Source: a virus (lineage: Duplodnaviria > Heunggongvirae > Uroviricota > Caudoviricetes). Taken from it: a DNA stretch of 4,746 nt. The notes below the pieces were generated by a model that saw only the letters and a program-made list of their open reading frames with translations, made no database searches and was not told the DNA's origin. The translations under genes were made by a program, and so were the position numbers. The stretch lies in IMG/VR virus record IMGVR_UViG_2690316028_000005; one strand, 5' to 3'. This document shows, one piece after another, positions 1 through 4,746 of the stretch (positions are counted from its first letter, which is position 1; each line of letters starts with the position of its first letter).

Positions 1-3
1 CAC

Positions 4-170
4 AAATATGCCAACGTTGGCACATTTCAAGTAGCTCAATCATTCCCAGCGCTGGGAATCATCCTCAAAACCGCAAACGTCTGCGGTTTCAGTACAATCA
101 GGTAATATAGATTGGGGAGCTTTACTGGTAGAAATATAACGTTTCAAAAGCGCCAGCGTTGGCGCTTTTG
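4..170. repeat. Cluster of four palindromes/hairpins: 4-27 (24 bp, one mismatched pair), 42-59 (18 bp perfect), 68-89 (8-bp arms, 6-nt centre), 145-170 (10-bp arms, 6-nt centre)
   Basis: Hand reverse-complement checks. Three of the four share a CCA(A/G)CG(T/C)TGG core: CCAACGTTGG 11-20, CCAGCGCTGG 46-55, CCAGCGTTGG 153-162. No ORF of 60 aa or more in the region. Confidence 0.6.
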
Positions 171-201
171 AAGGCTGGCAATATCAATAAGCTAATGATG
201 A

Positions 202-230
202 TTGCATCATCTGTTCCAAGTTAGTACACT
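202..230 (+). promoter_or_regulatory. Putative sigma70 promoter for a small RNA (-35 TTGCAT 202-207, 17-bp spacer, -10 TACACT 225-230)
   Basis: Hexamer spacing read from sequence; predicted start near 237, the first base of the left inverted-repeat arm. Match to consensus is only moderate. Confidence 0.3.
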
Positions 231-236
231 TATCCC

Positions 237-270
237 TGTTAGTGGATGCGTGACGCGCTCAGGTTGAGGC
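237..270. repeat. Left arm of a 34-bp inverted repeat (partner 488-521)
   Basis: Reverse complement of 237-270 equals 488-521 at 33 of 34 positions; the one difference would be a G-U pair if both arms are transcribed from the + strand. Confidence 0.9.
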
Positions 271-311
271 TCATTACCTTGAACAGAGATTCATCACCTT
301 AAGCCCCAAAG

Positions 312-346
312 AAAAAAGCCTGACCTCACCAGTTGGGCTTTTTTTT
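312..346. terminator. Bidirectional rho-independent terminator
   Basis: A-tract 312-317, 7-bp stem 318-324 with 332-338 (GCC/GGC base, two wobbles), 7-nt loop, then T8 at 339-346. The reverse complement also ends in a T-run. Confidence 0.55.
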
Positions 347-368
347 GTCCGTTATTTACTCCAGTCCT

Positions 369-396
369 TTGATTACATTGCTGATACCCTTATAAT
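369..396 (+). promoter_or_regulatory. Putative sigma70 promoter for the toxin mRNA (-35 TTGATT 369-374, 16-bp spacer, -10 TATAAT 391-396)
   Basis: Perfect consensus -10 and TTGA-type -35; predicted start near 403, giving a leader of about 190 nt before the ORF at 593. No LexA box (CTGT-N8-ACAG) seen. Confidence 0.5.
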
Positions 397-487
397 CACG
401 GCGTTAGTGGGTGTCGCGTTCTGACACAACGCAGGCATGTGAAACGTGTTCAAGCCCTGGCTGGATTACGGGTGGTGCCGCTCCAGT

Positions 488-521
488 GCCTCAACCTGAG
501 CGCGTCATGCATCCACTAACA
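488..521. repeat. Right arm of the 34-bp inverted repeat; proposed sRNA target site in the toxin mRNA leader
   Basis: Partner of 237-270. Lies 61-94 nt upstream of the GGAG at 582-585 and overlaps an AUG at 507 that heads a 9-codon upstream ORF. Confidence 0.9.
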
Positions 522-592
522 ATGCAACACCGTTAACCAGGCAGTGGAAGGGCTTTAACGATGATGCCGCGCTCCTGTAGTGGAGCAAACGG

Positions 593-676
593 ATGAAGGG
601 ATTTCTTCAAATCGCTGTCATCGCTCTTAAGGCGATTGTTGCCTTTATTGAGTTGATTCTGGCCTGCTTACCGTAA
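593..676 (+). CDS. 27-aa hydrophobic single-helix peptide, candidate TisB-like type I toxin (MKGFLQIAVIALKAIVAFIELILACLP)
   Basis: Hand translation; below the ORF-track size cutoff. GGAG 582-585 sits 7 nt before the ATG; in-frame TAG at 578-580 rules out an upstream extension. Resembles E. coli TisB as I recall it (MNLVDIAILILKLIVAALQLLDAVLKYLK): about half of the 20 core positions identical, including the helix-embedded Lys. Confidence 0.5.
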   Translation: MKGFLQIAVIALKAIVAFIELILACLP

Positions 677-695
677 GCGGTCAGGAAACGTAAGT

Positions 696-733
696 AAGGC
701 CACCGGCTCACCCCCGGTGGCCTTTAACATTTC
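696..733 (+). terminator. GC-rich hairpin (11-bp stem 696-706 with 714-724, 7-nt loop) followed by TTTAACATTT; possible 3' end of the toxin transcript
   Basis: Perfect 11-bp stem verified by hand, 20 nt after the toxin stop. The U-tract is interrupted, so termination efficiency is uncertain. Confidence 0.4.
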
Positions 734-928
734 TGAGTCTGCGTCGTCGCCGAACTGCCATTCATTTAAAGCAGGCTGTGGCGGTAACGCTGGATTTAAG
801 GTAGCACTGACGGCTTCAATTCCTGCGATATCTTGGCGTGTCGTTTTGATTAAAGCGCATTAGAAACAAATTTCACCGTTCTGATTAATCATGTTTACCG
901 GACTATTCAAAGCAAGGTAAATCTCAAT

Positions 929-1273
929 ATGGCACGACCTCAGACGGTTAATCAGTTACCCGACCCGATCAAGAAAGAACTTAATAAAAAGCTGACCGAA
1001 AGTTCATTCAGCGGTTACGTTCAGCTTACTGAGTGGTTAAACTCGTTGGGATACCCGGTTTCAAAATCATCATTGCATCGCTATGCTGAACGCCGCCGCC
1101 TGTCGCTTATTGCAGGGAGCGATGCTCCTGGTGCAACAGCTAATATTGTGGATATTAAACTTCGCTGTCTGGAGATTGCCTCGCTCTGTTTAAAAACCGA
1201 CGAAAAGCTGCCAACAGATGAAGTAACAAAACACGCTGAAAATTTGATGGGGTGGCTTTACGACCAGAAATAA
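929..1273 (+). CDS. Hypothetical small protein (114 aa), possibly a helix-turn-helix DNA-binding or terminase small-subunit-like protein
   Basis: ORF-track ORF with ATG start and AAGG 11 nt upstream. The N-terminal pattern (QLPDPIKKEL...SLHRYAERRR) recalls small phage DNA-binding proteins; family assignment is from memory and unverified. Confidence 0.65.
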   Translation: MARPQTVNQLPDPIKKELNKKLTESSFSGYVQLTEWLNSLGYPVSKSSLHRYAERRRLSLIAGSDAPGATANIVDIKLRCLEIASLCLKTDEKLPTDEVTKHAENLMGWLYDQK

Positions 1274-1282
1274 TTGACTGCG

Positions 1283-1301
1283 CGGGAGGCTTGCCCTCCC
1301 G
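1283..1301 (+). terminator. Hairpin just after the 929-1273 stop (7-bp stem CGGGAGG/CCTCCCG, 5-nt loop); possible attenuator
   Basis: Stem verified by hand; no clean U-tract follows. Sits ahead of a C-rich, G-poor tract at 1321-1380. Confidence 0.25.
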
Positions 1302-1402
1302 TTACGTATACGGAAACTCTTTTACAAACCCCCATCCAACCTTTTCCAACATCTTCCCCCATAGTCCCACAATTATCTCACGGGAAACCCTGTATTTATC
1401 TC

Positions 1403-1537
1403 ATGTCTAATCACGTTGGTGGTGTTCGCCATCACCTCGGCTTATTCACTACCGAAGCGGCGGCGCGTGCTGCGTACCTGAAAGCTAAAGCCAGATACCA
1501 TCCGTCAACGCCAGCCGATTTATTGCAGGCTGCCTAA
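1403..1537 (+). CDS. Possible 44-aa ORF with a degenerate AP2-like motif (GGVRHHLGLFTTEAAARAAY); may be a gene remnant or non-coding
   Basis: ATG-initiated sub-ORF of the track ORF 1274-1537, whose TTG-started N-terminus is low-complexity and Pro-rich. Weak ribosome-binding site. Confidence 0.2.
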   Translation: MSNHVGGVRHHLGLFTTEAAARAAYLKAKARYHPSTPADLLQAA

Positions 1538-1555
1538 TCCTCGGAGGTTCCATTA

Positions 1556-1981
1556 ATGGCTGATGAAAAGCCGATTAGAGCGCTGGCAGATGATGACCCG
1601 CGCCGCCAGCGGTACGCTGAACTGTTGGCGCAGGCTGGCCGCATGACTATTCCACGGCTGCATCCGGGCGATGCTAACAGTGTTATGAGTCAGCTTGCGA
1701 CAATGCTCGGAGCACCTGTCCCGATAGTAGGTGCTATGACTGAGCACGCCGCTGCATGGCGTGCCTGTCTTCTGGAGCAAGGGCTTGGTGATCTTCTGGA
1801 TGGCTTGAGTAAGCAGGTGCTGACCATCTTCTTTCTGCTCTGCTGGAGAGACAGCGCCTTGCGATTGGCGGGTAAGCAAAAGGAACGGTTTGCAGCGGCC
1901 AGCGAGGGTTTGACCATTGAGCAATACCGGGCAATGCACCCGGCTTACAGAGAGGATAAAGAAAATGATAACCACGATTAA
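1556..1981 (+). CDS. Hypothetical protein (141 aa)
   Basis: GGAGG 1543-1547 is 8 nt before the ATG; GC-rich; overlaps the next ORF by 17 nt. Confidence 0.75.
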   Translation: MADEKPIRALADDDPRRQRYAELLAQAGRMTIPRLHPGDANSVMSQLATMLGAPVPIVGAMTEHAAAWRACLLEQGLGDLLDGLSKQVLTIFFLLCWRDSALRLAGKQKERFAAASEGLTIEQYRAMHPAYREDKENDNHD

Positions 1982-2264
1982 ATTAAGGTGGCGGTACATC
2001 GAGCCGCCACCAATGACTGGCGCACTCGCTGACCTGAAACAGTGGGTAATGGATACCGGAGAGCCTGAGCTTGAAGCTAAATTTCGTAAGCTGCTGGGGC
2101 TGATGCGCCGCAATGGTATCAGTGACGAACGTGTTAATGCGATGGCCGCCGAGCTTTATGCTCTGGTATGCCAACGCCAGCGCGAAGAATACGAAGCCTG
2201 CAAACGGGCTGCATCTGACAGTGGAGGCTTTGAATCATGGTTACACGGACAGACCAACTACTAA
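1965..2264 (+). CDS. Hypothetical protein (about 99 aa; start trimmed from the track TTG at 1917 to the ATG at 1965)
   Basis: AGAGG 1951-1955 is 9 nt before the ATG at 1965; overlaps the upstream ORF stop at 1979-1981. Confidence 0.6.
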   Translation: MITTIKLRWRYIEPPPMTGALADLKQWVMDTGEPELEAKFRKLLGLMRRNGISDERVNAMAAELYALVCQRQREEYEACKRAASDSGGFESWLHGQTNY

Positions 2265-2674
2265 GAAAAGCGATGCGAGGCTATCTGGAATATCTCGGCA
2301 ACATGCCGCTAGCGGAACGCATTAAAAATTCTGCTGCGTTCGATGATGTGTATCACTTCCTGTTGAATGGTTCAGGACGGCTGGAGTTGCGCCGCGCTGA
2401 TGTGGCCGCTGTCCGTGTCTTCCTGTGGAATTATCAATACCGACGCTGCGCGGTGACAGCTAAGCCGCTACGCCTCGCGTCTGCTGTATTGGATCACTGT
2501 CACCGAACTGGACGTGTGCGCGCTGTGGTTCATCGTTCGGCCAATGCAGCGGAAGGTGGTTATTATGTGGGAAATTTGTGCGGACTCTCACGAGGTAGCA
2601 TGTTAAGCATGCTACCTGCCTACCGCCGACAATACAAGGGGTTGGGCGTTATTTATCCAAGACAACATGCGTGA
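2237..2674 (+). CDS. Hypothetical Arg-rich protein (145 aa)
   Basis: GGAGG 2223-2227 is 9 nt before the ATG; overlaps the upstream ORF by 28 nt. Confidence 0.65.
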   Translation: MVTRTDQLLRKAMRGYLEYLGNMPLAERIKNSAAFDDVYHFLLNGSGRLELRRADVAAVRVFLWNYQYRRCAVTAKPLRLASAVLDHCHRTGRVRAVVHRSANAAEGGYYVGNLCGLSRGSMLSMLPAYRRQYKGLGVIYPRQHA

Positions 2675-2712
2675 TGAGATTATTTCTTTTATTTTCATTC
2701 GGTTATGTGTTG

Positions 2713-2790
2713 TTGTGGCTGCCTTGTTACTTGCCTATATTTAAAACAATTCTTGACGGATTGACGTAGATTGCGTAGGCTGAGCATAAA
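2713..2790 (+). promoter_or_regulatory. AT-rich upstream region of the cargo operon with tandem TTGACG/TTGCGT repeats and candidate promoter hexamers (TTGTGG 2713-2718 with TATATT 2736-2741)
   Basis: Imperfect tandem repeats cTTGACGga 2752-2760, TTGACGta 2761-2768, TTGCGTag 2771-2778. Several -35-like hexamers but no single unambiguous -35/-10 pair. Confidence 0.3.
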
Positions 2791-2875
2791 ACAGTTTCCT
2801 AATATGTCTCCAAACTGAGCTTCAACTTGAGAATACTTCGTTCCTACATCTCCCTTGAAGGGGTAGGAGGATAAT

Positions 2876-3085
2876 ATGAACTTTGATATGCGTACAAACC
2901 AAAATTGTGCATCGTTTTTTAACCCAGCAACCAAGGCGTTTGTCGTCGTTGATTCGTTTGACAACTACGAATTCGATGTGCGTGCTGGTACTTTATCACG
3001 CACTGAATTTGTAGGCACCATCACAGCTTCAAACGATGAAGAGTTGAACAAGAAATTAGCTGAGATCACGGCTGCACACATATGA
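2876..3085 (+). CDS. Small acidic hypothetical protein (69 aa); first gene of the AT-rich cargo operon
   Basis: AGGAGG 2865-2870 is 5 nt before the ATG. About 37-40% GC by hand count against about 55-60% in the upstream genes. I count 10 Asp/Glu and 6 Lys/Arg; no hydrophobic segment. Confidence 0.7.
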   Translation: MNFDMRTNQNCASFFNPATKAFVVVDSFDNYEFDVRAGTLSRTEFVGTITASNDEELNKKLAEITAAHI

Positions 3086-3456
3086 TAACTCAACAGCAGA
3101 TTGATGATTTAGTTGCAGATATTAACGATATCTTGGAAGAAGATAGAGCCAAGCTAAAGATGTCATTTCATTTTGCTGTTGATAGACTTAATGATCCGCG
3201 TAATAAACCTCCAATCACGTTAGCTGAGTTGAGAGTGATTTTTACAAATTTCATTGGACAACACTTGCAGACAATTCTAGGCAAAGATGAGGGATTTTCC
3301 TTCACTATCAAGTGTCAGAAATCTGGTATTGCTATACCGTGCGCTATAGAGCATGAACTTGATATCGGTGCAAAGTGGGTAGTTCAGCAAGTGATCACCA
3401 TCATGCGGAATCCGCAGTTTAACGCGTATCATGGTGATGTCATCTTTGATGTTTAA
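3082..3456 (+). CDS. Hypothetical protein (124 aa); second gene of the cargo operon, translationally coupled
   Basis: Its ATG overlaps the upstream stop in ATGA at 3082-3085. Acidic by my count (17 Asp/Glu, 12 Lys/Arg). An H-x4-R-x4-R motif (HFAVDRLNDPR) is present but I cannot assign a family. Confidence 0.7.
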   Translation: MITQQQIDDLVADINDILEEDRAKLKMSFHFAVDRLNDPRNKPPITLAELRVIFTNFIGQHLQTILGKDEGFSFTIKCQKSGIAIPCAIEHELDIGAKWVVQQVITIMRNPQFNAYHGDVIFDV

Positions 3457-3483
3457 AAGAAAGGCGCTATAGCGCCTTTTTTA
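3455..3483. terminator. Bidirectional rho-independent terminator shared by the cargo operon and the convergent integrase
   Basis: A-rich run, perfect palindrome GGCGCTATAGCGCC at 3463-3476, then TTTTTT at 3477-3482. The integrase stop codon (complement of 3481-3483) lies in the T-tract. Confidence 0.7.
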
Positions 3484-4704
3484 TAAACACGGATAACTGA
3501 CCAACTCCACATACTCCCATAGTTCTTTCATCCCTGCTCCCTTGCTATATGTCCTGAAAGCTTCCGTTTTAGCTTTTTGTTCGGTATGCCCGGTTATTGC
3601 CCCTATGCGCTGTTCTGGTACTCCTGCTCTGTCTAAGCAAGTAATAAAGTGACCACGCAGGGAGTGGAAGCATTGGCGATCTGTAGCCGCTGACAGCACG
3701 CGACGGCGTAGCCGTGTAAATGCCTGCGAGTACCACGGGCCACGCTTACCGTCGGCACGTTTAATCTTGTTCGATTGGGGGAGCAGGTATTCACCGTTGT
3801 TCTGCGCAAGGTATTTATCAACGATGCTGATTAACAGCGAGTGTATGGGGACGTGCCTTACACCCGCTTTAGTTTTAGATTTGCTGACGTAGAAGCAGCG
3901 TACCCCTTCAACTTTGATAATCTCAACTCGTTTGATGCTGGCGATTTCGTCGAGACGCATACCGGAATACAAACCGATTATGATTACGTCTCGTATCTCG
4001 CTACCTGCCTCTTTTATTAATGCCTGTAGCTGGTGTAGTTCAAAAGGTTGATAACTTTCGTTCGTCTGGCGGGCTTCCAGATTGTGGCCGTGAAAGGGAT
4101 TATCAGGGGCGATATTGTCATATTTACGCCGGGCGAAGTCATACAGCGTCCCTAAGCAGGTTAACCAGTTTTGCAGCGTCTGGCGGGAAAACTTATCTTG
4201 GTTCGCTTCCAGAAAGTCAGAGACGAGCCGCCGCCCGATTCCATTTATTGTAATGGTTGGGCGTTTTATTGAATTAGTAAATGCCGATACAGCGCGAACT
4301 GATTTACTCAGCGTGGAATAAGAGCGCCGATCTTTGTATTGCTCTGCATATTCTTTACTGACATCTGTCAATTTTGGTGATGCTGGTTTTCCCCGCTCTG
4401 CTGGAATAGTTGCGGGTGTGGTAATGCTGCTGGATACCCCCGCCAGCAAGTGAAGATCTGTTACAGCGGAATGAATCCGGGTAATGGGGTTATCCGGTTT
4501 CATCATGAGCTGTAGCTTACGGAACTCTAATAAATATTGGTCACGGAAAATGCGAGCTTGCATGATGTCCCGTGTGCCTGTCGATTTCTTGAGCGAGCGC
4601 CGCCCGTTCCAGAGGTGGCGCATGTAGACCGGAATATAGATTTGAAAGATGAATATCCCATCTTTGTTTGCATAAAGATAAGAAGTCTTCGGTAATGACT
4701 CCAA
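3481..4704 (-). CDS. int: Tyrosine site-specific recombinase (phage-type integrase, 407 aa as tracked)
   Basis: C-terminal catalytic signature: Arg in YSGMRLDEI, HSLRGHF (H-x-x-R), then GH and Tyr in FRTYSKG. The N-terminus (LPKTSYLYANKDG...NGRRSLKKSTGTRD) resembles lambda/P22-type arm-binding domains as I recall them. The tracked start is TTG at 4704 with a weak ribosome-binding site; the next ATG is at 4623. Confidence 0.85.
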   Translation of the reverse strand: MESLPKTSYLYANKDGIFIFQIYIPVYMRHLWNGRRSLKKSTGTRDIMQARIFRDQYLLEFRKLQLMMKPDNPITRIHSAVTDLHLLAGVSSSITTPATIPAERGKPASPKLTDVSKEYAEQYKDRRSYSTLSKSVRAVSAFTNSIKRPTITINGIGRRLVSDFLEANQDKFSRQTLQNWLTCLGTLYDFARRKYDNIAPDNPFHGHNLEARQTNESYQPFELHQLQALIKEAGSEIRDVIIIGLYSGMRLDEIASIKRVEIIKVEGVRCFYVSKSKTKAGVRHVPIHSLLISIVDKYLAQNNGEYLLPQSNKIKRADGKRGPWYSQAFTRLRRRVLSAATDRQCFHSLRGHFITCLDRAGVPEQRIGAITGHTEQKAKTEAFRTYSKGAGMKELWEYVELVSYPCL

Positions 4705-4746
4705 CTTACTGATAGTGTTTTATGTTCAGATAATGCCCGATGACTT

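What the first reader, a model, noticed from the sequence alone, without database searches (positions are those of the whole stretch)
593..676. Unannotated 27-codon ORF encoding a TisB-like hydrophobic peptide
Inside the 928-bp stretch with no tracked ORF there is a short reading frame with a well-spaced GGAG. It encodes MKGFLQIAVIALKAIVAFIELILACLP, a single predicted transmembrane helix with a Lys in the middle and an acidic residue near the C-terminal end. This is the architecture of type I toxins, and by my hand alignment it matches E. coli TisB at about half of the 20 core positions (IA-I-LK-IVA--L--A-L pattern). Such peptides are usually missed by gene callers.
Basis: partly seen in the sequence, partly recalled or inferred. 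Interest (0 to 1): 0.8.

Follow-up and report, generated by a model that had tools for sequence, protein, structure and literature searches.

The report
Unannotated DinQ/TisB-like toxin with RNA antitoxin

Summary
ORF 593-676 exists, with GGAG 7 nt upstream. It is under purifying selection: across 8 alleles the variable sites fall 14/6/0 at codon positions 3/1/2, and pN/pS is 0.07-0.27.

It is a type I toxin, but no TisB model (Pfam, NCBIfam) matches it. The closest family is DinQ/Dql-AgrB:
- The whole mRNA aligns with E. coli dinQ (nhmmer E 6e-14).
- An intermediate homologue on Erwinia plasmid pET35 passes NCBIfam's DinQ model and Rfam's AgrB model.

A ~110-nt sRNA (238-347, with its own promoter and terminator) has a 5' end complementary to mRNA 488-521, 60-105 nt upstream of the start. 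Across 12 distinct loci this duplex keeps 32-33 of 33 pairs, with compensatory changes at 25 positions.

Unlike the dinQ, dqlB, Erwinia and Pantoea relatives checked, the sRNA gene lies on the same strand as the toxin, and there is no LexA box.

The locus sits at the end of a ~7.8-kb Mu-like element without a transposase. It is annotated in none of the homologous RefSeq or PLSDB records examined.

Verdict: a new variant of a known kind, of moderate interest. As a by-product, tisB and dinQ mRNAs appear homologous.

The parts
202..230 (+). Promoter of the antitoxin sRNA: -35 TTGCAT (202-207), 17-nt spacer, -10 TACACT (225-230)
   Evidence: Read from the sequence. Both hexamers are kept in the viral-contig homologues. 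Pluralibacter has TTGACA-17-TAGACT at the same place. The scan did not list it, because it scores 8 of 12 and falls below that scan's threshold.
238..347 (+). Candidate antitoxin sRNA (AgrB-like), about 110 nt, starting at GTTAG
   Evidence: The 5' part is predicted single-stranded, followed by a 15-bp terminator hairpin at 310-346 and a U8 tract. It starts with GTTAG like E. coli AgrB. Its terminator loop CCUCACCAG is shared with the Erwinia sRNA, which Rfam calls AgrB at 54 bits. The window's own sRNA is not matched by Rfam AgrB.
237..270 (+). sRNA pairing segment, complementary to 488-521
   Evidence: 34-nt inverted repeat, 97% complementary. Predicted duplex energy is -72.7 kcal/mol. It covaries with its target in 12 distinct loci.
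369..396 (+). Toxin promoter: TTGATT, 16-nt spacer, TATAAT
   Evidence: The only sigma-70-like site the scan found in bases 1-1000, scoring 10 of 12. It aligns with the dinQ -10 element. No LexA box is present.
403..730 (+). Toxin mRNA: inferred +1 at G403 of GTTAG, 190-nt 5' UTR, ORF, 3' UTR and terminator
   Evidence: It aligns end to end with the E. coli dinQ, Erwinia and dqlB mRNAs. The +1 is inferred by homology with dinQ +1 (PMC5066626). The ends were not mapped.
403..414 (+). 5' lock: the mRNA 5' end mimics the sRNA 5' end and pairs with 509-520
   Evidence: Predicted in the MFE of the full-length mRNA. The same 5'-end:CUAAC pairing is predicted in 6 of 7 lineages, including dinQ. It corresponds to the S1 double lock of dinQ (PMC5066626).
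459..490 (+). Conserved structured box: outer helix 459-465 / 482-490 enclosing hairpin 469-471 / 478-480 (CGG-GUGGUG-CCG)
   Evidence: This is the most conserved block of the family. Both helices covary across 12 distinct loci. The outer helix is positionally the same as stem 2 (G54-G57:C74-C77) of the tisB 5' element needed for S1/30S standby binding (PMC7708055).
488..521 (+). sRNA target site in the 5' UTR, 60 nt upstream of the SD and 71-105 nt upstream of the ATG
   Evidence: The position is equivalent to the AgrB site G88-A119 of dinQ (PMC5066626) and to the IstR-1 site of tisB.
571..586 (+). SD hairpin: anti-SD GCUCC (571-575) paired with GGAGC (582-586)
   Evidence: Predicted closed (P unpaired 0.00-0.02) in the full-length, 5'-truncated and sRNA-bound forms. 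CUCC...GGAG is kept in all relatives and in tisB.
593..676 (+). Toxin ORF, 27 codons: MKGFLQIAVIALKAIVAFIELILACLP
684..725 (+). 3' UTR box GGAAACGTAAGTAAGG (684-699) and terminator hairpin (696-725) followed by UUUAACAUUU
   Evidence: The box is invariant or nearly so in window-type, Erwinia, dinQ, Pantoea and dqlB mRNAs. The hairpin is predicted. The + strand U-tract is weak, so the scan listed the hairpin only on the - strand.

Best explanation
Bases 202-730 hold a complete type I toxin-antitoxin module. It belongs to the DinQ/Dql-AgrB lineage, inside a wider TisB/DinQ group.

**Proposed mechanism**
1. A strong constitutive promoter (369-396) makes a ~330-nt mRNA from G403.
2. In this primary transcript, the 5' end (403-414) pairs with 509-520 and the SD is locked in a hairpin (571-575/582-586). 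It is therefore stable but not translated.
3. 5' trimming, as at +44 in dinQ and +42 in tisB, would free the region 488-521 next to a conserved structured box (459-490). That would allow 30S loading and translation of the 27-residue peptide.
4. The peptide would insert into the inner membrane as one helix with a polar stripe (Q6-K13-E20) and dissipate membrane potential.
5. A separately transcribed ~110-nt sRNA (238-347), on the same strand and just upstream, pairs through its unstructured 5' 33-34 nt with 488-521. This would block translation at a distance and create an RNase III substrate.

**Shown here.** The ORF is under protein-level selection. The sRNA-target complementarity is maintained by compensatory change. 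The mRNA is homologous to dinQ/dql. Promoter and terminator signals are present.

**Inferred from the studied homologues.** 5' processing, RNase III cleavage, toxicity and membrane targeting.

**Biological role (inference).** Since the module rides a mobile element and lacks LexA control, the likeliest role is stabilisation of the element, or killing of cells in which transcription stops (loss of the element or phage attack), as shown for plasmid DqlB-AgrB.
For: **Coding selection.**
- Among 8 alleles, variable sites fall 14/6/0 at codon positions 3/1/2.
- pN/pS is 0.07-0.27.
- The start codon switches between ATG and GTG at the same position.

**sRNA-target pairing.**
- A 34-nt complement joins 237-270 and 488-521.
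- Duplex energies are -53 to -78 kcal/mol in 16 loci.
- In 12 distinct loci, cognate pairs form 32-33 of 33 standard pairs, against 13-29 for non-cognate lineages.
- 25 of 33 positions show double-sided changes, including a compensated 1-nt deletion in L018.
- The repeat is inverted in window-type loci but direct in Erwinia, Pantoea, dinQ and dqlB. The sRNA strand is always the complementary one, which only makes sense at the RNA level.

**Family placement.**
- nhmmer of the window locus gives Erwinia 1e-25, dinQ 6e-14 and dqlB 1e-13.
- The alignment shares blocks from +1 GTTAG through to the terminator.
- The Erwinia peptide, which scores z = 7.1 against the window peptide, passes NCBIfam toxin_DinQ at 42.6 bits against a cut-off of 30.
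- The Erwinia sRNA passes Rfam AgrB at 54 bits against a cut-off of 40.

**Structure.** The 5' lock and the SD hairpin are predicted in the window and its relatives. The sRNA 5' end is predicted unstructured, with a strong terminator.

**Conserved helix.** A helix and hairpin box covaries. It coincides with the tisB element proven necessary for standby translation (PMC7708055).

**Precedent.**
- dinQ/agrB mechanism: PMC3567139, PMC5066626.
- DqlB-AgrB of pOXA-48 is toxic, is rescued by agrB and acts as an addiction module through a 35-nt complementarity (PMC12365149).
Against: - There are no expression data: transcript ends, processing, translation and toxicity are all inferred.
- The window peptide matches no curated model: Pfam TisB, NCBIfam TisB, DinQ and DqlB. 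The sRNA is not matched by Rfam AgrB or istR.
- Thermodynamic folding does not reproduce an opening of the SD after 5' truncation. P(unpaired) stays near 0 in every form. If the dinQ-type 2:3 pairing is forced (2.7 kcal/mol above the MFE), the SD simply pairs with a second anti-SD at 479-484. The dinQ 'SD switch' is therefore not supported here and the activation step is uncertain. The same method gives only a weak signal for dinQ itself (0.1 to 0.29 to 0.02), so it is not very sensitive.
- The terminator after the ORF has a poor U-tract on the + strand.
- Complementarity between two copies of a repeat could also be kept by gene conversion rather than by selection on pairing.
Confidence: 0.85

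Rival explanations
1. It is a member of the TisB/IstR-1 family proper: an SOS-induced persistence toxin controlled by an IstR-like sRNA that competes with standby ribosomes.
For: - The peptide is 40% identical to TisB over 25 residues, z = 4.9.
- The polar heptad stripe Q6-K13-E20 lines up with D5-K12-Q19 of TisB.
- The tisAB mRNA is detectably homologous to this family: E 1.2e-8, with a shared box and shared SD hairpin.
- The SD stays closed in all predicted forms, as reported for tisB (PMC5066626 discussion).
Against: - No hit to Pfam PF13939, to NCBIfam TisB or to Rfam istR. TisB itself scores 37-70 bits in the protein models and istR scores 150 bits.
- No LexA box is present; the tisB control scores 18 of 20.
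- Single-sequence nhmmer finds dinQ, dqlB and Erwinia but not tisB.
- The sRNA starts with GTTAG and has an AgrB-type terminator. tisB also carries a 24-nt insertion that the others lack.
Confidence: 0.07
2. There is no separate sRNA. Bases 238-730 are one transcript whose long-range hairpin (238-270 with 488-521) silences the toxin gene in cis.
For: Both arms lie on the same strand, 217 nt apart. A read-through transcript would therefore fold back on itself. This can happen only in the tandem arrangement.
Against: - A 15-bp terminator hairpin with U8 lies at 310-347, between the arms.
- The best sigma-70 promoter of the region (369-396) lies downstream of it and aligns with the dinQ promoter and +1.
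- In Erwinia, Pantoea, dinQ and dqlB the homologous sRNA cassette is on the opposite strand and must act in trans.

Read-through may exist as a minor extra safety layer.
Confidence: 0.05
3. The ORF is a chance reading frame in a structured non-coding region, and the region acts only as RNA or DNA (for example as binding sites of the mobile element).
For: Many ORFs of similar length occur by chance in this stretch. No protein model matches. The RNA is highly structured.
Against: - The substitution pattern is that of a protein: 0 of 20 variable sites fall at codon position 2, and pN/pS is 0.07-0.27.
- The frame, SD and start are conserved from the window to Pluralibacter, Erwinia, DinQ, DqlB and TisB.
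- The module also occurs outside the mobile element, between gltA and nei in Pluralibacter.
Confidence: 0.03

Closest known systems
DinQ/AgrB of E. coli K-12 (Weel-Sneve 2013, PMC3567139; Kristiansen 2016, PMC5066626)
   Same: - Both encode a 27-aa single-helix peptide.
- The mRNA is homologous over its whole length: +1 GTTAG, the CCTGG..ACGGGTGGTGCCG box, CTAACAAT, CAGGCAGTGGA, the SD hairpin, the 3' box GGAAACGTAA.TAAGG and the terminator.
- The sRNA starts with GTTAG and pairs over about 34 nt with the same part of the 5' UTR.
- The 5' end locks onto the target site.
   Different: - Only 9 of 24 residues are identical, and the peptide fails NCBIfam toxin_DinQ.
- It has 3 extra N-terminal residues, lacks the C-terminal LLN tail, and has Lys where DinQ has Gly10.
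- The sRNA gene is on the same strand as the toxin, not divergent. There is a single sRNA copy and no agrA.
- The sRNA is about 110 nt rather than 82 and is not recognised by Rfam AgrB.
- There is no LexA box.
- The SD switch is not reproduced in silico.
- It sits on a mobile element rather than in the arsR-gor spacer.
DqlB/AgrB of enterobacterial plasmids (dql family, PMC5066626; pOXA-48, PMC12365149)
   Same: - It is a mobile-element-borne, constitutively promoted relative of dinQ.
- It has a ~35-nt sRNA complementarity in the 5' UTR.
- mRNA homology scores nhmmer E 1e-13.
- The likely role is stabilisation or addiction.
   Different: - DqlB is 31 aa with a 4-residue insert (MINLLIVVLRAVVAVSNAVIAVLELIRQYFD). 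PGAP annotates it in thousands of plasmids.
- The window-type peptide is annotated in none of the records examined and is rare: 9 of 5426 complete E. coli genomes, 1 of 72,556 plasmids by tblastn.
- agrB is divergent in the dqlB loci.
Homologue on Erwinia tasmaniensis plasmid pET35 (unannotated; L003 about 2789-3300)
   Same: This is the closest distinct relative found.
- The mRNA is 67% identical over 311 nt, nhmmer E 1e-25.
- The peptide MKALIDKVLIVLKALVALLELIRQFID shares the N-terminus MK...., K13 and E20 (z = 7.1).
- The terminator loop of the sRNA is the same.
   Different: - Its C-terminus is DinQ/DqlB-like (ELIRQFID).
- It passes the NCBIfam DinQ and Rfam AgrB models.
- Its sRNA is divergent.

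It therefore links the window-type to the curated families.
TisB/IstR-1 of E. coli (Darfeuille 2007, cited in PMC5066626; Romilly 2019/2020, PMC6690012 and PMC7708055)
   Same: - The peptide is 40% identical and has the same polar heptad stripe.
- The 5' structural box and the SD hairpin are shared.
- The sRNA site lies about 100 nt upstream of a permanently closed SD, the hallmark of standby control.
   Different: - It fails the TisB and istR models.
- There is no LexA box.
- The mRNA is much closer to dinQ.
- The sRNA sequence and its orientation differ.

Membership tests
Type I toxin-antitoxin system (general) | Small hydrophobic peptide ORF with its own SD, under protein-level selection | tested here: met
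   27 aa, GRAVY 1.93, pN/pS 0.07-0.27.
Type I toxin-antitoxin system (general) | Antisense RNA with extended complementarity to the toxin mRNA, maintained in evolution | tested here: met
   A 34-nt complement. 25 of 33 positions have compensatory change across 12 loci, and cognate pairs exceed non-cognate pairs.
Type I toxin-antitoxin system (general) | Toxicity of the peptide and rescue by the RNA | not testable with these tools
   Needs expression experiments. It has been shown for the homologues DinQ (PMC3567139) and DqlB (PMC12365149).
DinQ/Dql toxins (NCBIfam NF041472 toxin_DinQ, NF041473 DqlB) | Peptide scores above the curated cut-off of the family model | tested here: not met
   The window peptide hits no family at E up to 10. 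The Erwinia intermediate scores 42.6 bits against a cut-off of 30. Window versus DinQ gives z = 4.4 and window versus Erwinia z = 7.1.
dinQ/dql genes as defined by Kristiansen 2016 (PMC5066626) | Striking similarity of the mRNA 5' UTR to dinQ, plus promoter, SD and terminator | tested here: met
   nhmmer E 6e-14 to dinQ and 1e-13 to dqlB. Conserved blocks appear in alignments A2 and A4.
dinQ/dql genes as defined by Kristiansen 2016 (PMC5066626) | Four sequence elements giving mutually exclusive pairings 1:2, 2:3 and 3:4, so that the SD opens after 5' processing | tested here: inconclusive
   Pairings 1:2 (403-414:509-520) and 3:4 (571-575:582-586) are predicted. Pairing 2:3 (498-504:568-574) is possible at +2.7 kcal/mol, but the SD stays paired in every form.
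AgrB sRNA (Rfam RF02891) | Match to the covariance model at or above 40 bits | tested here: not met
   No AgrB match at E up to 1 in the window, L007 or L018. Positive controls: E. coli agrA/agrB 106-108 bits, Erwinia 54, IncX4 59, Pantoea 34.
[quoted passage not shown] | sRNA gene upstream of the toxin gene, non-overlapping and transcribed divergently | tested here: not met
   The sRNA is upstream and non-overlapping but on the same strand in all 12 window-type loci. It is divergent in Erwinia, Pantoea, dinQ and dqlB.
SOS-regulated toxins (dinQ, tisB) | LexA box at the toxin promoter | tested here: not met
   No CTG-N10-CAG in bases 1-1000, and the best 20-mer scores 10 of 20. Controls: dinQ 15 of 20, tisB 18 of 20.
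TisB toxin (Pfam PF13939; NCBIfam TIGR04459, NF011340) | Peptide scores above the family cut-off | tested here: not met
   No hit at E up to 10. E. coli TisB scores 37.4, 59.9 and 69.6 bits.
IstR sRNA (Rfam RF01400) | Match to the covariance model | tested here: not met
   No match in the window. The control scores 150 bits.
tisB-type standby translation (PMC6690012, PMC7708055) | Structured 5' element followed by a single-stranded sRNA-target region about 100 nt upstream of a closed SD | tested here: met
   A homologous, covarying helix and hairpin lie at 459-490, directly before target 488-521. The SD is closed in all predicted forms. S1 and 30S binding itself is not testable here.

The most novel reading that the evidence does not exclude
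[quoted passage not shown] Zor/Orz may belong too, given the zor-dinQ UTR similarity noted in PMC11264685. The literature treats tisB, zor and shoB as non-homologous.

The shared core would be a nested helix plus CGG-GUGGUG-CCG hairpin immediately 5' of the sRNA site. Its outer helix is the 'stem 2' that was shown by compensatory mutagenesis to be needed for S1-dependent standby in tisB.

If so, standby loading rather than an SD switch would be the common translational mechanism of the whole group. The antitoxin gene could also flip strand freely. Search pipelines that assume a divergent arrangement, such as T1TAdb's, would then miss such loci.
Probability: 0.45. Interest if true: 0.65.

Novelty: new variant of a known kind. 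Interest (0 to 1): 0.5.

Why it matters
**Annotation gap.** Type I toxins are routinely missed by annotation. This one escapes every curated model that should catch it (Pfam, NCBIfam, Rfam), although it is clearly related to two of the best-studied systems. The model space for this family is therefore too narrow.

**Orientation.** It shows that the antitoxin gene can sit on the same strand as the toxin. Family-specific search rules exclude that arrangement.

**A bridge between two models.** It gives an intermediate between DinQ and TisB. That makes a direct test possible of whether the two published translation-control models, the SD switch and ribosome standby, are really one.

**Practical note.** The module is cargo of a small transposable Mu-like element. 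That element has landed in chromosomes, in a conjugative plasmid and in a prophage, where the module could stabilise the element or act against phage.

Tried and rejected
- **Curated models.** Pfam and NCBIfam scans of the window peptide gave no hit. Rfam on the window gave only sub-threshold chance matches to Thr_leader, STnc40 and others.
- **Protein database search.** The search for homologous proteins refuses queries under 40 aa, so no such search of the peptide was possible.
- **tblastn of the peptide.** It found only the Citrobacter plasmid and nothing in the phage collection.
- **Nucleotide search of the phage collection.** No match.
- **Family-level DNA pattern in genome contigs.** Only 8 loci came back, so the pattern was too strict to sample the family widely.
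- **Folding test of the dinQ 'SD opens after truncation' model.** It was not reproduced for the window and only weakly for dinQ itself. I therefore do not claim that mechanism.
- **LexA control.** Considered and rejected.
- **Full Mu prophage as carrier.** Rejected. The element is only ~7.8 kb and lacks transposase genes.
- **DqlA.** I could not establish whether the window-type equals the 'DqlA' group of Kristiansen 2016. The figure and supplements are not held as text, and 'dqlA' appears in no other relevant paper.
- **Not used.** The metagenome scan, structure prediction (the peptide is under 30 aa) and covariance-model building.
Full report
**1. The observation**

The window has an ORF at 593-676 (+) that encodes MKGFLQIAVIALKAIVAFIELILACLP. 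GGAG lies at 582-585, seven bases before the ATG.

The peptide is the most hydrophobic of the 15 ORFs of at least 20 codons in the first 930 bases (GRAVY 1.93; best 19-residue window 2.59). Its only polar residues (K2, Q6, K13, E20) fall within a 40-degree arc of a helical wheel.

The stated similarity to E. coli TisB is correct. BLASTP gives 10 of 25 identities and 16 of 25 positives. Against composition-preserving shuffles z = 4.9, p about 4e-4.

An ORF of this size is not remarkable here, so the real test is conservation. I collected 12 related loci:
- E. coli chromosomes;
- a Citrobacter IncFIC plasmid;
- Intestinirhabdus and Pluralibacter genomes;
- six IMG/VR viral contigs.

All keep the frame, the SD and a start codon at the same position (ATG, or GTG in L018). 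Among 8 distinct alleles, 14 variable sites are at codon position 3, six at position 1 and none at position 2. pN/pS is 0.07-0.27, and window versus Pluralibacter shows 12 synonymous and 3 non-synonymous differences. The other forward frames contain stops. The ORF is a gene.

**2. What surrounds it**

Bases 237-270 are the reverse complement of 488-521: 34 nt, with one G:U. Each arm sits in its own transcription unit on the + strand.

The upstream arm:
- It follows TTGCAT-17-TACACT (202-230).
- It begins with GTTAG at 238.
- It is followed by about 70 nt predicted to be unstructured, then a 15-bp terminator hairpin with eight U (310-347).

The downstream arm:
- It lies in the 190-nt leader of the ORF.
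- The leader starts, by homology, at G403, six bases after the best sigma-70 promoter of the region (TTGATT-16-TATAAT, 369-396).

This is the anatomy of a trans-encoded type I antitoxin. A ~110-nt RNA would pair through its 5' end with the toxin mRNA, 60 nt upstream of the SD.

**3. Is the pairing selected?**

For 16 loci I located the best duplex between the leader and either strand of the upstream DNA. Energies are -53 to -78 kcal/mol.

I then anchored the duplex at its GTTAG/CTAAC end for 12 distinct loci. Cognate pairs form 32-33 of 33 standard pairs. sRNAs tested against the targets of other lineages form only 13-29. Compensatory double changes occur at 25 of 33 positions. One lineage (L018) carries a one-base deletion in both partners.

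The geometry is also informative. In all 12 window-type loci the two copies are inverted, so the sRNA is on the toxin strand. In the Erwinia plasmid, Pantoea, E. coli dinQ and the dqlB plasmids they are direct, so the sRNA is on the opposite strand. The sRNA cassette, with its promoter and terminator, has flipped. What is conserved is that the RNA made is complementary to the leader. A DNA-level explanation, such as a protein-binding or recombination repeat, does not account for this.

**4. Which family?**

*Curated models.* No curated model matches the window's peptide or sRNA. I tried Pfam (including TisB_toxin), NCBIfam (TisB, DinQ, DqlB) and Rfam (istR, AgrB). All of these models score their own E. 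coli members well.

*The link through a distant homologue.* Homology was established through Erwinia tasmaniensis plasmid pET35.
- Its mRNA is 67% identical over 311 nt.
- Its 27-aa peptide, MKALIDKVLIVLKALVALLELIRQFID, is the best match to the window peptide (z = 7.1). It passes NCBIfam toxin_DinQ at 42.6 bits against a cut-off of 30, E 5e-11.
- Its sRNA passes Rfam AgrB at 54 bits against a cut-off of 40.

*Direct comparison with dinQ.* The window's mRNA aligns with E. coli K-12 dinQ from +1 to the terminator. Shared blocks are GTTAG at +1, TTCAA..CCTGG..TACGGGTGGTGCCG, CTAACAAT at the end of the sRNA site, CAGGCAGTGGA, the CUCC/GGAG hairpin, GGAAACGTAA.TAAGG after the stop, and CCTTTAACATT. 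Single-sequence nhmmer gives E 1e-25 for Erwinia, 6e-14 for dinQ, 1e-13 for dqlB and nothing for tisB.

*Literature.*
- The dinQ-like (dql) family was defined on exactly this kind of leader similarity (Kristiansen 2016, PMC5066626).
- DqlB-AgrB of pOXA-48 has since been shown to be toxic, rescued by agrB and an addiction module (PMC12365149).
- DqlB is now annotated by PGAP on thousands of plasmids.

The locus therefore belongs to the DinQ/Dql-AgrB lineage by mRNA homology and architecture. It is a divergent branch that fails the family's protein and sRNA models.

**5. How far the TisB idea holds**

At the peptide level the window is as close to TisB (z = 4.9) as to DinQ (z = 4.4). DinQ and TisB also resemble each other (z = 4.3).

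I built a profile from six dinQ/dql/window-type mRNAs, leaving tisB out. In 108 kb of E. coli sequence it finds the tisAB mRNA at E 1.2e-8. The hit is anchored on AAGTCCTGGCTG..ACGGGTGGTGCCG and ACAGGCAG.GGAA.

That box folds as an outer helix around a CGG-GUGGUG-CCG hairpin, and both helices covary across 12 distinct loci. I mapped tisB positions onto L024, taking +1 as 1338, which is consistent with the mutated bases G54, C55, U56, G57 and C74-C77. On that mapping the outer helix is the 'stem 2' whose disruption abolishes, and whose compensation restores, S1/30S binding and toxicity of tisB mRNA (PMC7708055). That paper calls the tisB, zor and shoB systems non-homologous. Another paper notes an unexplained zor-dinQ leader similarity (PMC11264685).

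'TisB-like' is therefore right in a superfamily sense and wrong as a family assignment.

**6. Mechanism**

*Shown by computation.*
- In the full-length mRNA the first 12 nt pair with 509-520. This occupies the sRNA site, as in the dinQ 'S1 double lock'. The same pairing is predicted in 6 of 7 lineages.
- The SD is in a 5-bp hairpin (571-575/582-586).

*Not reproduced.* The SD does not open after 5' truncation.
- P(unpaired) stays at or below 0.02 in the +1, truncated and sRNA-bound forms.
- Forcing the dinQ-type 2:3 pairing (498-504:568-574, +2.7 kcal/mol) only moves the SD onto a second anti-SD at 479-484.
- The same computation gives a weak but correct trend for dinQ (0.1, 0.29, 0.02).

The SD is permanently closed, the tisB-type 5' element is conserved directly before the sRNA site, and the distance to the SD is 60-105 nt. 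I therefore favour standby-type loading that the sRNA blocks, followed by RNase III cleavage of the 34-bp duplex. The SD switch ranks second. Processing, cleavage, membrane insertion and depolarisation are inferred from DinQ, DqlB and TisB.

*Regulation.* There is no LexA box: no CTG-N10-CAG in 1-1000, against 15 of 20 for dinQ and 18 of 20 for tisB. Expression is probably constitutive, as on plasmids.

**7. Context and role**

Window 1-1413 is the right end of a discrete ~7.8-kb element. Window 1411-4746 matches a different prophage at 100%.

The element recurs with the same genes at several sites:
- between dacD and sbmC in E. coli CX21;
- inside a PTS gene in VREC0864, where it is flanked by a TTCGGC duplication;
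- on a Citrobacter plasmid.

It has TG...CA ends with repeated GAGATAAAT motifs. It carries Mor, a tape-measure-like gene, a protease fragment and a Gp27 N-terminal fragment, but no transposase.

In Pluralibacter the same module, also tandem, sits alone between gltA and nei. The module is therefore mobile cargo in its own right. The likeliest role is stabilisation of the carrier, or killing when transcription stops. This is an inference.

**8. Novelty**

- The kind is known.
- The window-type peptide is in no paper searched, and the exact sequence is absent from a 15-billion-protein collection.
- The locus is unannotated in all records seen.
- It is rare: 9 of 5426 complete E. coli genomes.
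- It differs from described members in sRNA orientation, regulation and carrier.

I rate it a new variant of a known kind, of moderate interest. The main wider lead is the TisB-DinQ homology and the shared standby element.

Noticed in passing
window 1-1413 (right end at 1413/1414); L025 about 33990-41960; L026 about 1469-9250; L004: The toxin-antitoxin module is cargo of a discrete ~7.8-kb element found at unrelated sites: dacD-sbmC, inside a PTS gene, an IncFIC plasmid, and here inside a prophage. The element has TG..CA termini, repeated GAGATAAAT / CGTGAGATAA end motifs and a 5-6 bp flanking duplication (TTCGGC). It carries Mor, a tape-measure-like gene, a head-protease fragment, an Arc/HicB-like gene and a Gp27 N-terminal fragment, but no transposase or integrase. 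It looks like a natural non-autonomous mini-Mu, possibly a satellite of a transposable phage.
   Followed up: partly
window 452-490 and 538-552; L024 1383-1414 and 1498-1513 (tisAB mRNA): tisB and dinQ/dql leaders appear homologous: profile nhmmer gives E 1.2e-8 with tisB left out of the profile. The shared box folds as a covarying outer helix plus a CGG-GUGGUG-CCG hairpin. The outer helix equals 'stem 2' of the published tisB pseudoknot. The covariation fits a nested two-helix element present in all these families, which the literature calls non-homologous (PMC7708055).
   Followed up: partly
window 1411-4746: The rest of the window is a different prophage region, 100% identical to E. coli VREC0864 at 980525-983860. 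It holds small ORFs, HNH/endonuclease-domain genes and a tyrosine integrase on the - strand (about 3480-4700). No complete E. coli genome in the collection holds the junction itself.
   Followed up: no
L007 (Pluralibacter gergoviae), about 1330-1800, - strand: A window-type module (peptide MKGFLEITVIALKALVAFIELILACLP, sRNA in tandem) sits alone in the core chromosome between citrate synthase (gltA) and endonuclease VIII (nei), outside any mini-Mu. All three sRNA:target mismatches there are G:U.
   Followed up: partly
L003 2791-2861 (-): The Erwinia AgrB-type sRNA also gives a weak match to Rfam OrzO-P (30.6 bits, below the gathering score). Together with the zor-dinQ leader similarity reported in PMC11264685, this hints that Zor/Orz belongs to the same group.
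   Followed up: no
window 479-484: A second anti-SD (GCUCCA) lies inside the 3' arm of the conserved helix, just before the sRNA site. When the dinQ-type 2:3 pairing is forced, the SD pairs with it instead of opening.
   Followed up: partly
window 4-27, 39-62, 143-172: Three palindromes lie upstream of the module. The third (13-bp arms, GC-rich, flanked by T/A runs) looks like a bidirectional terminator that closes the preceding gene of the element.
   Followed up: no
L022 235-318 and 879-974: An IncN/IncF multireplicon plasmid carries two dqlB genes 560 bp apart. One encodes a shorter 27-aa variant, MMNLLIIVLRAVLAIANALIAIQKLIE.
   Followed up: no
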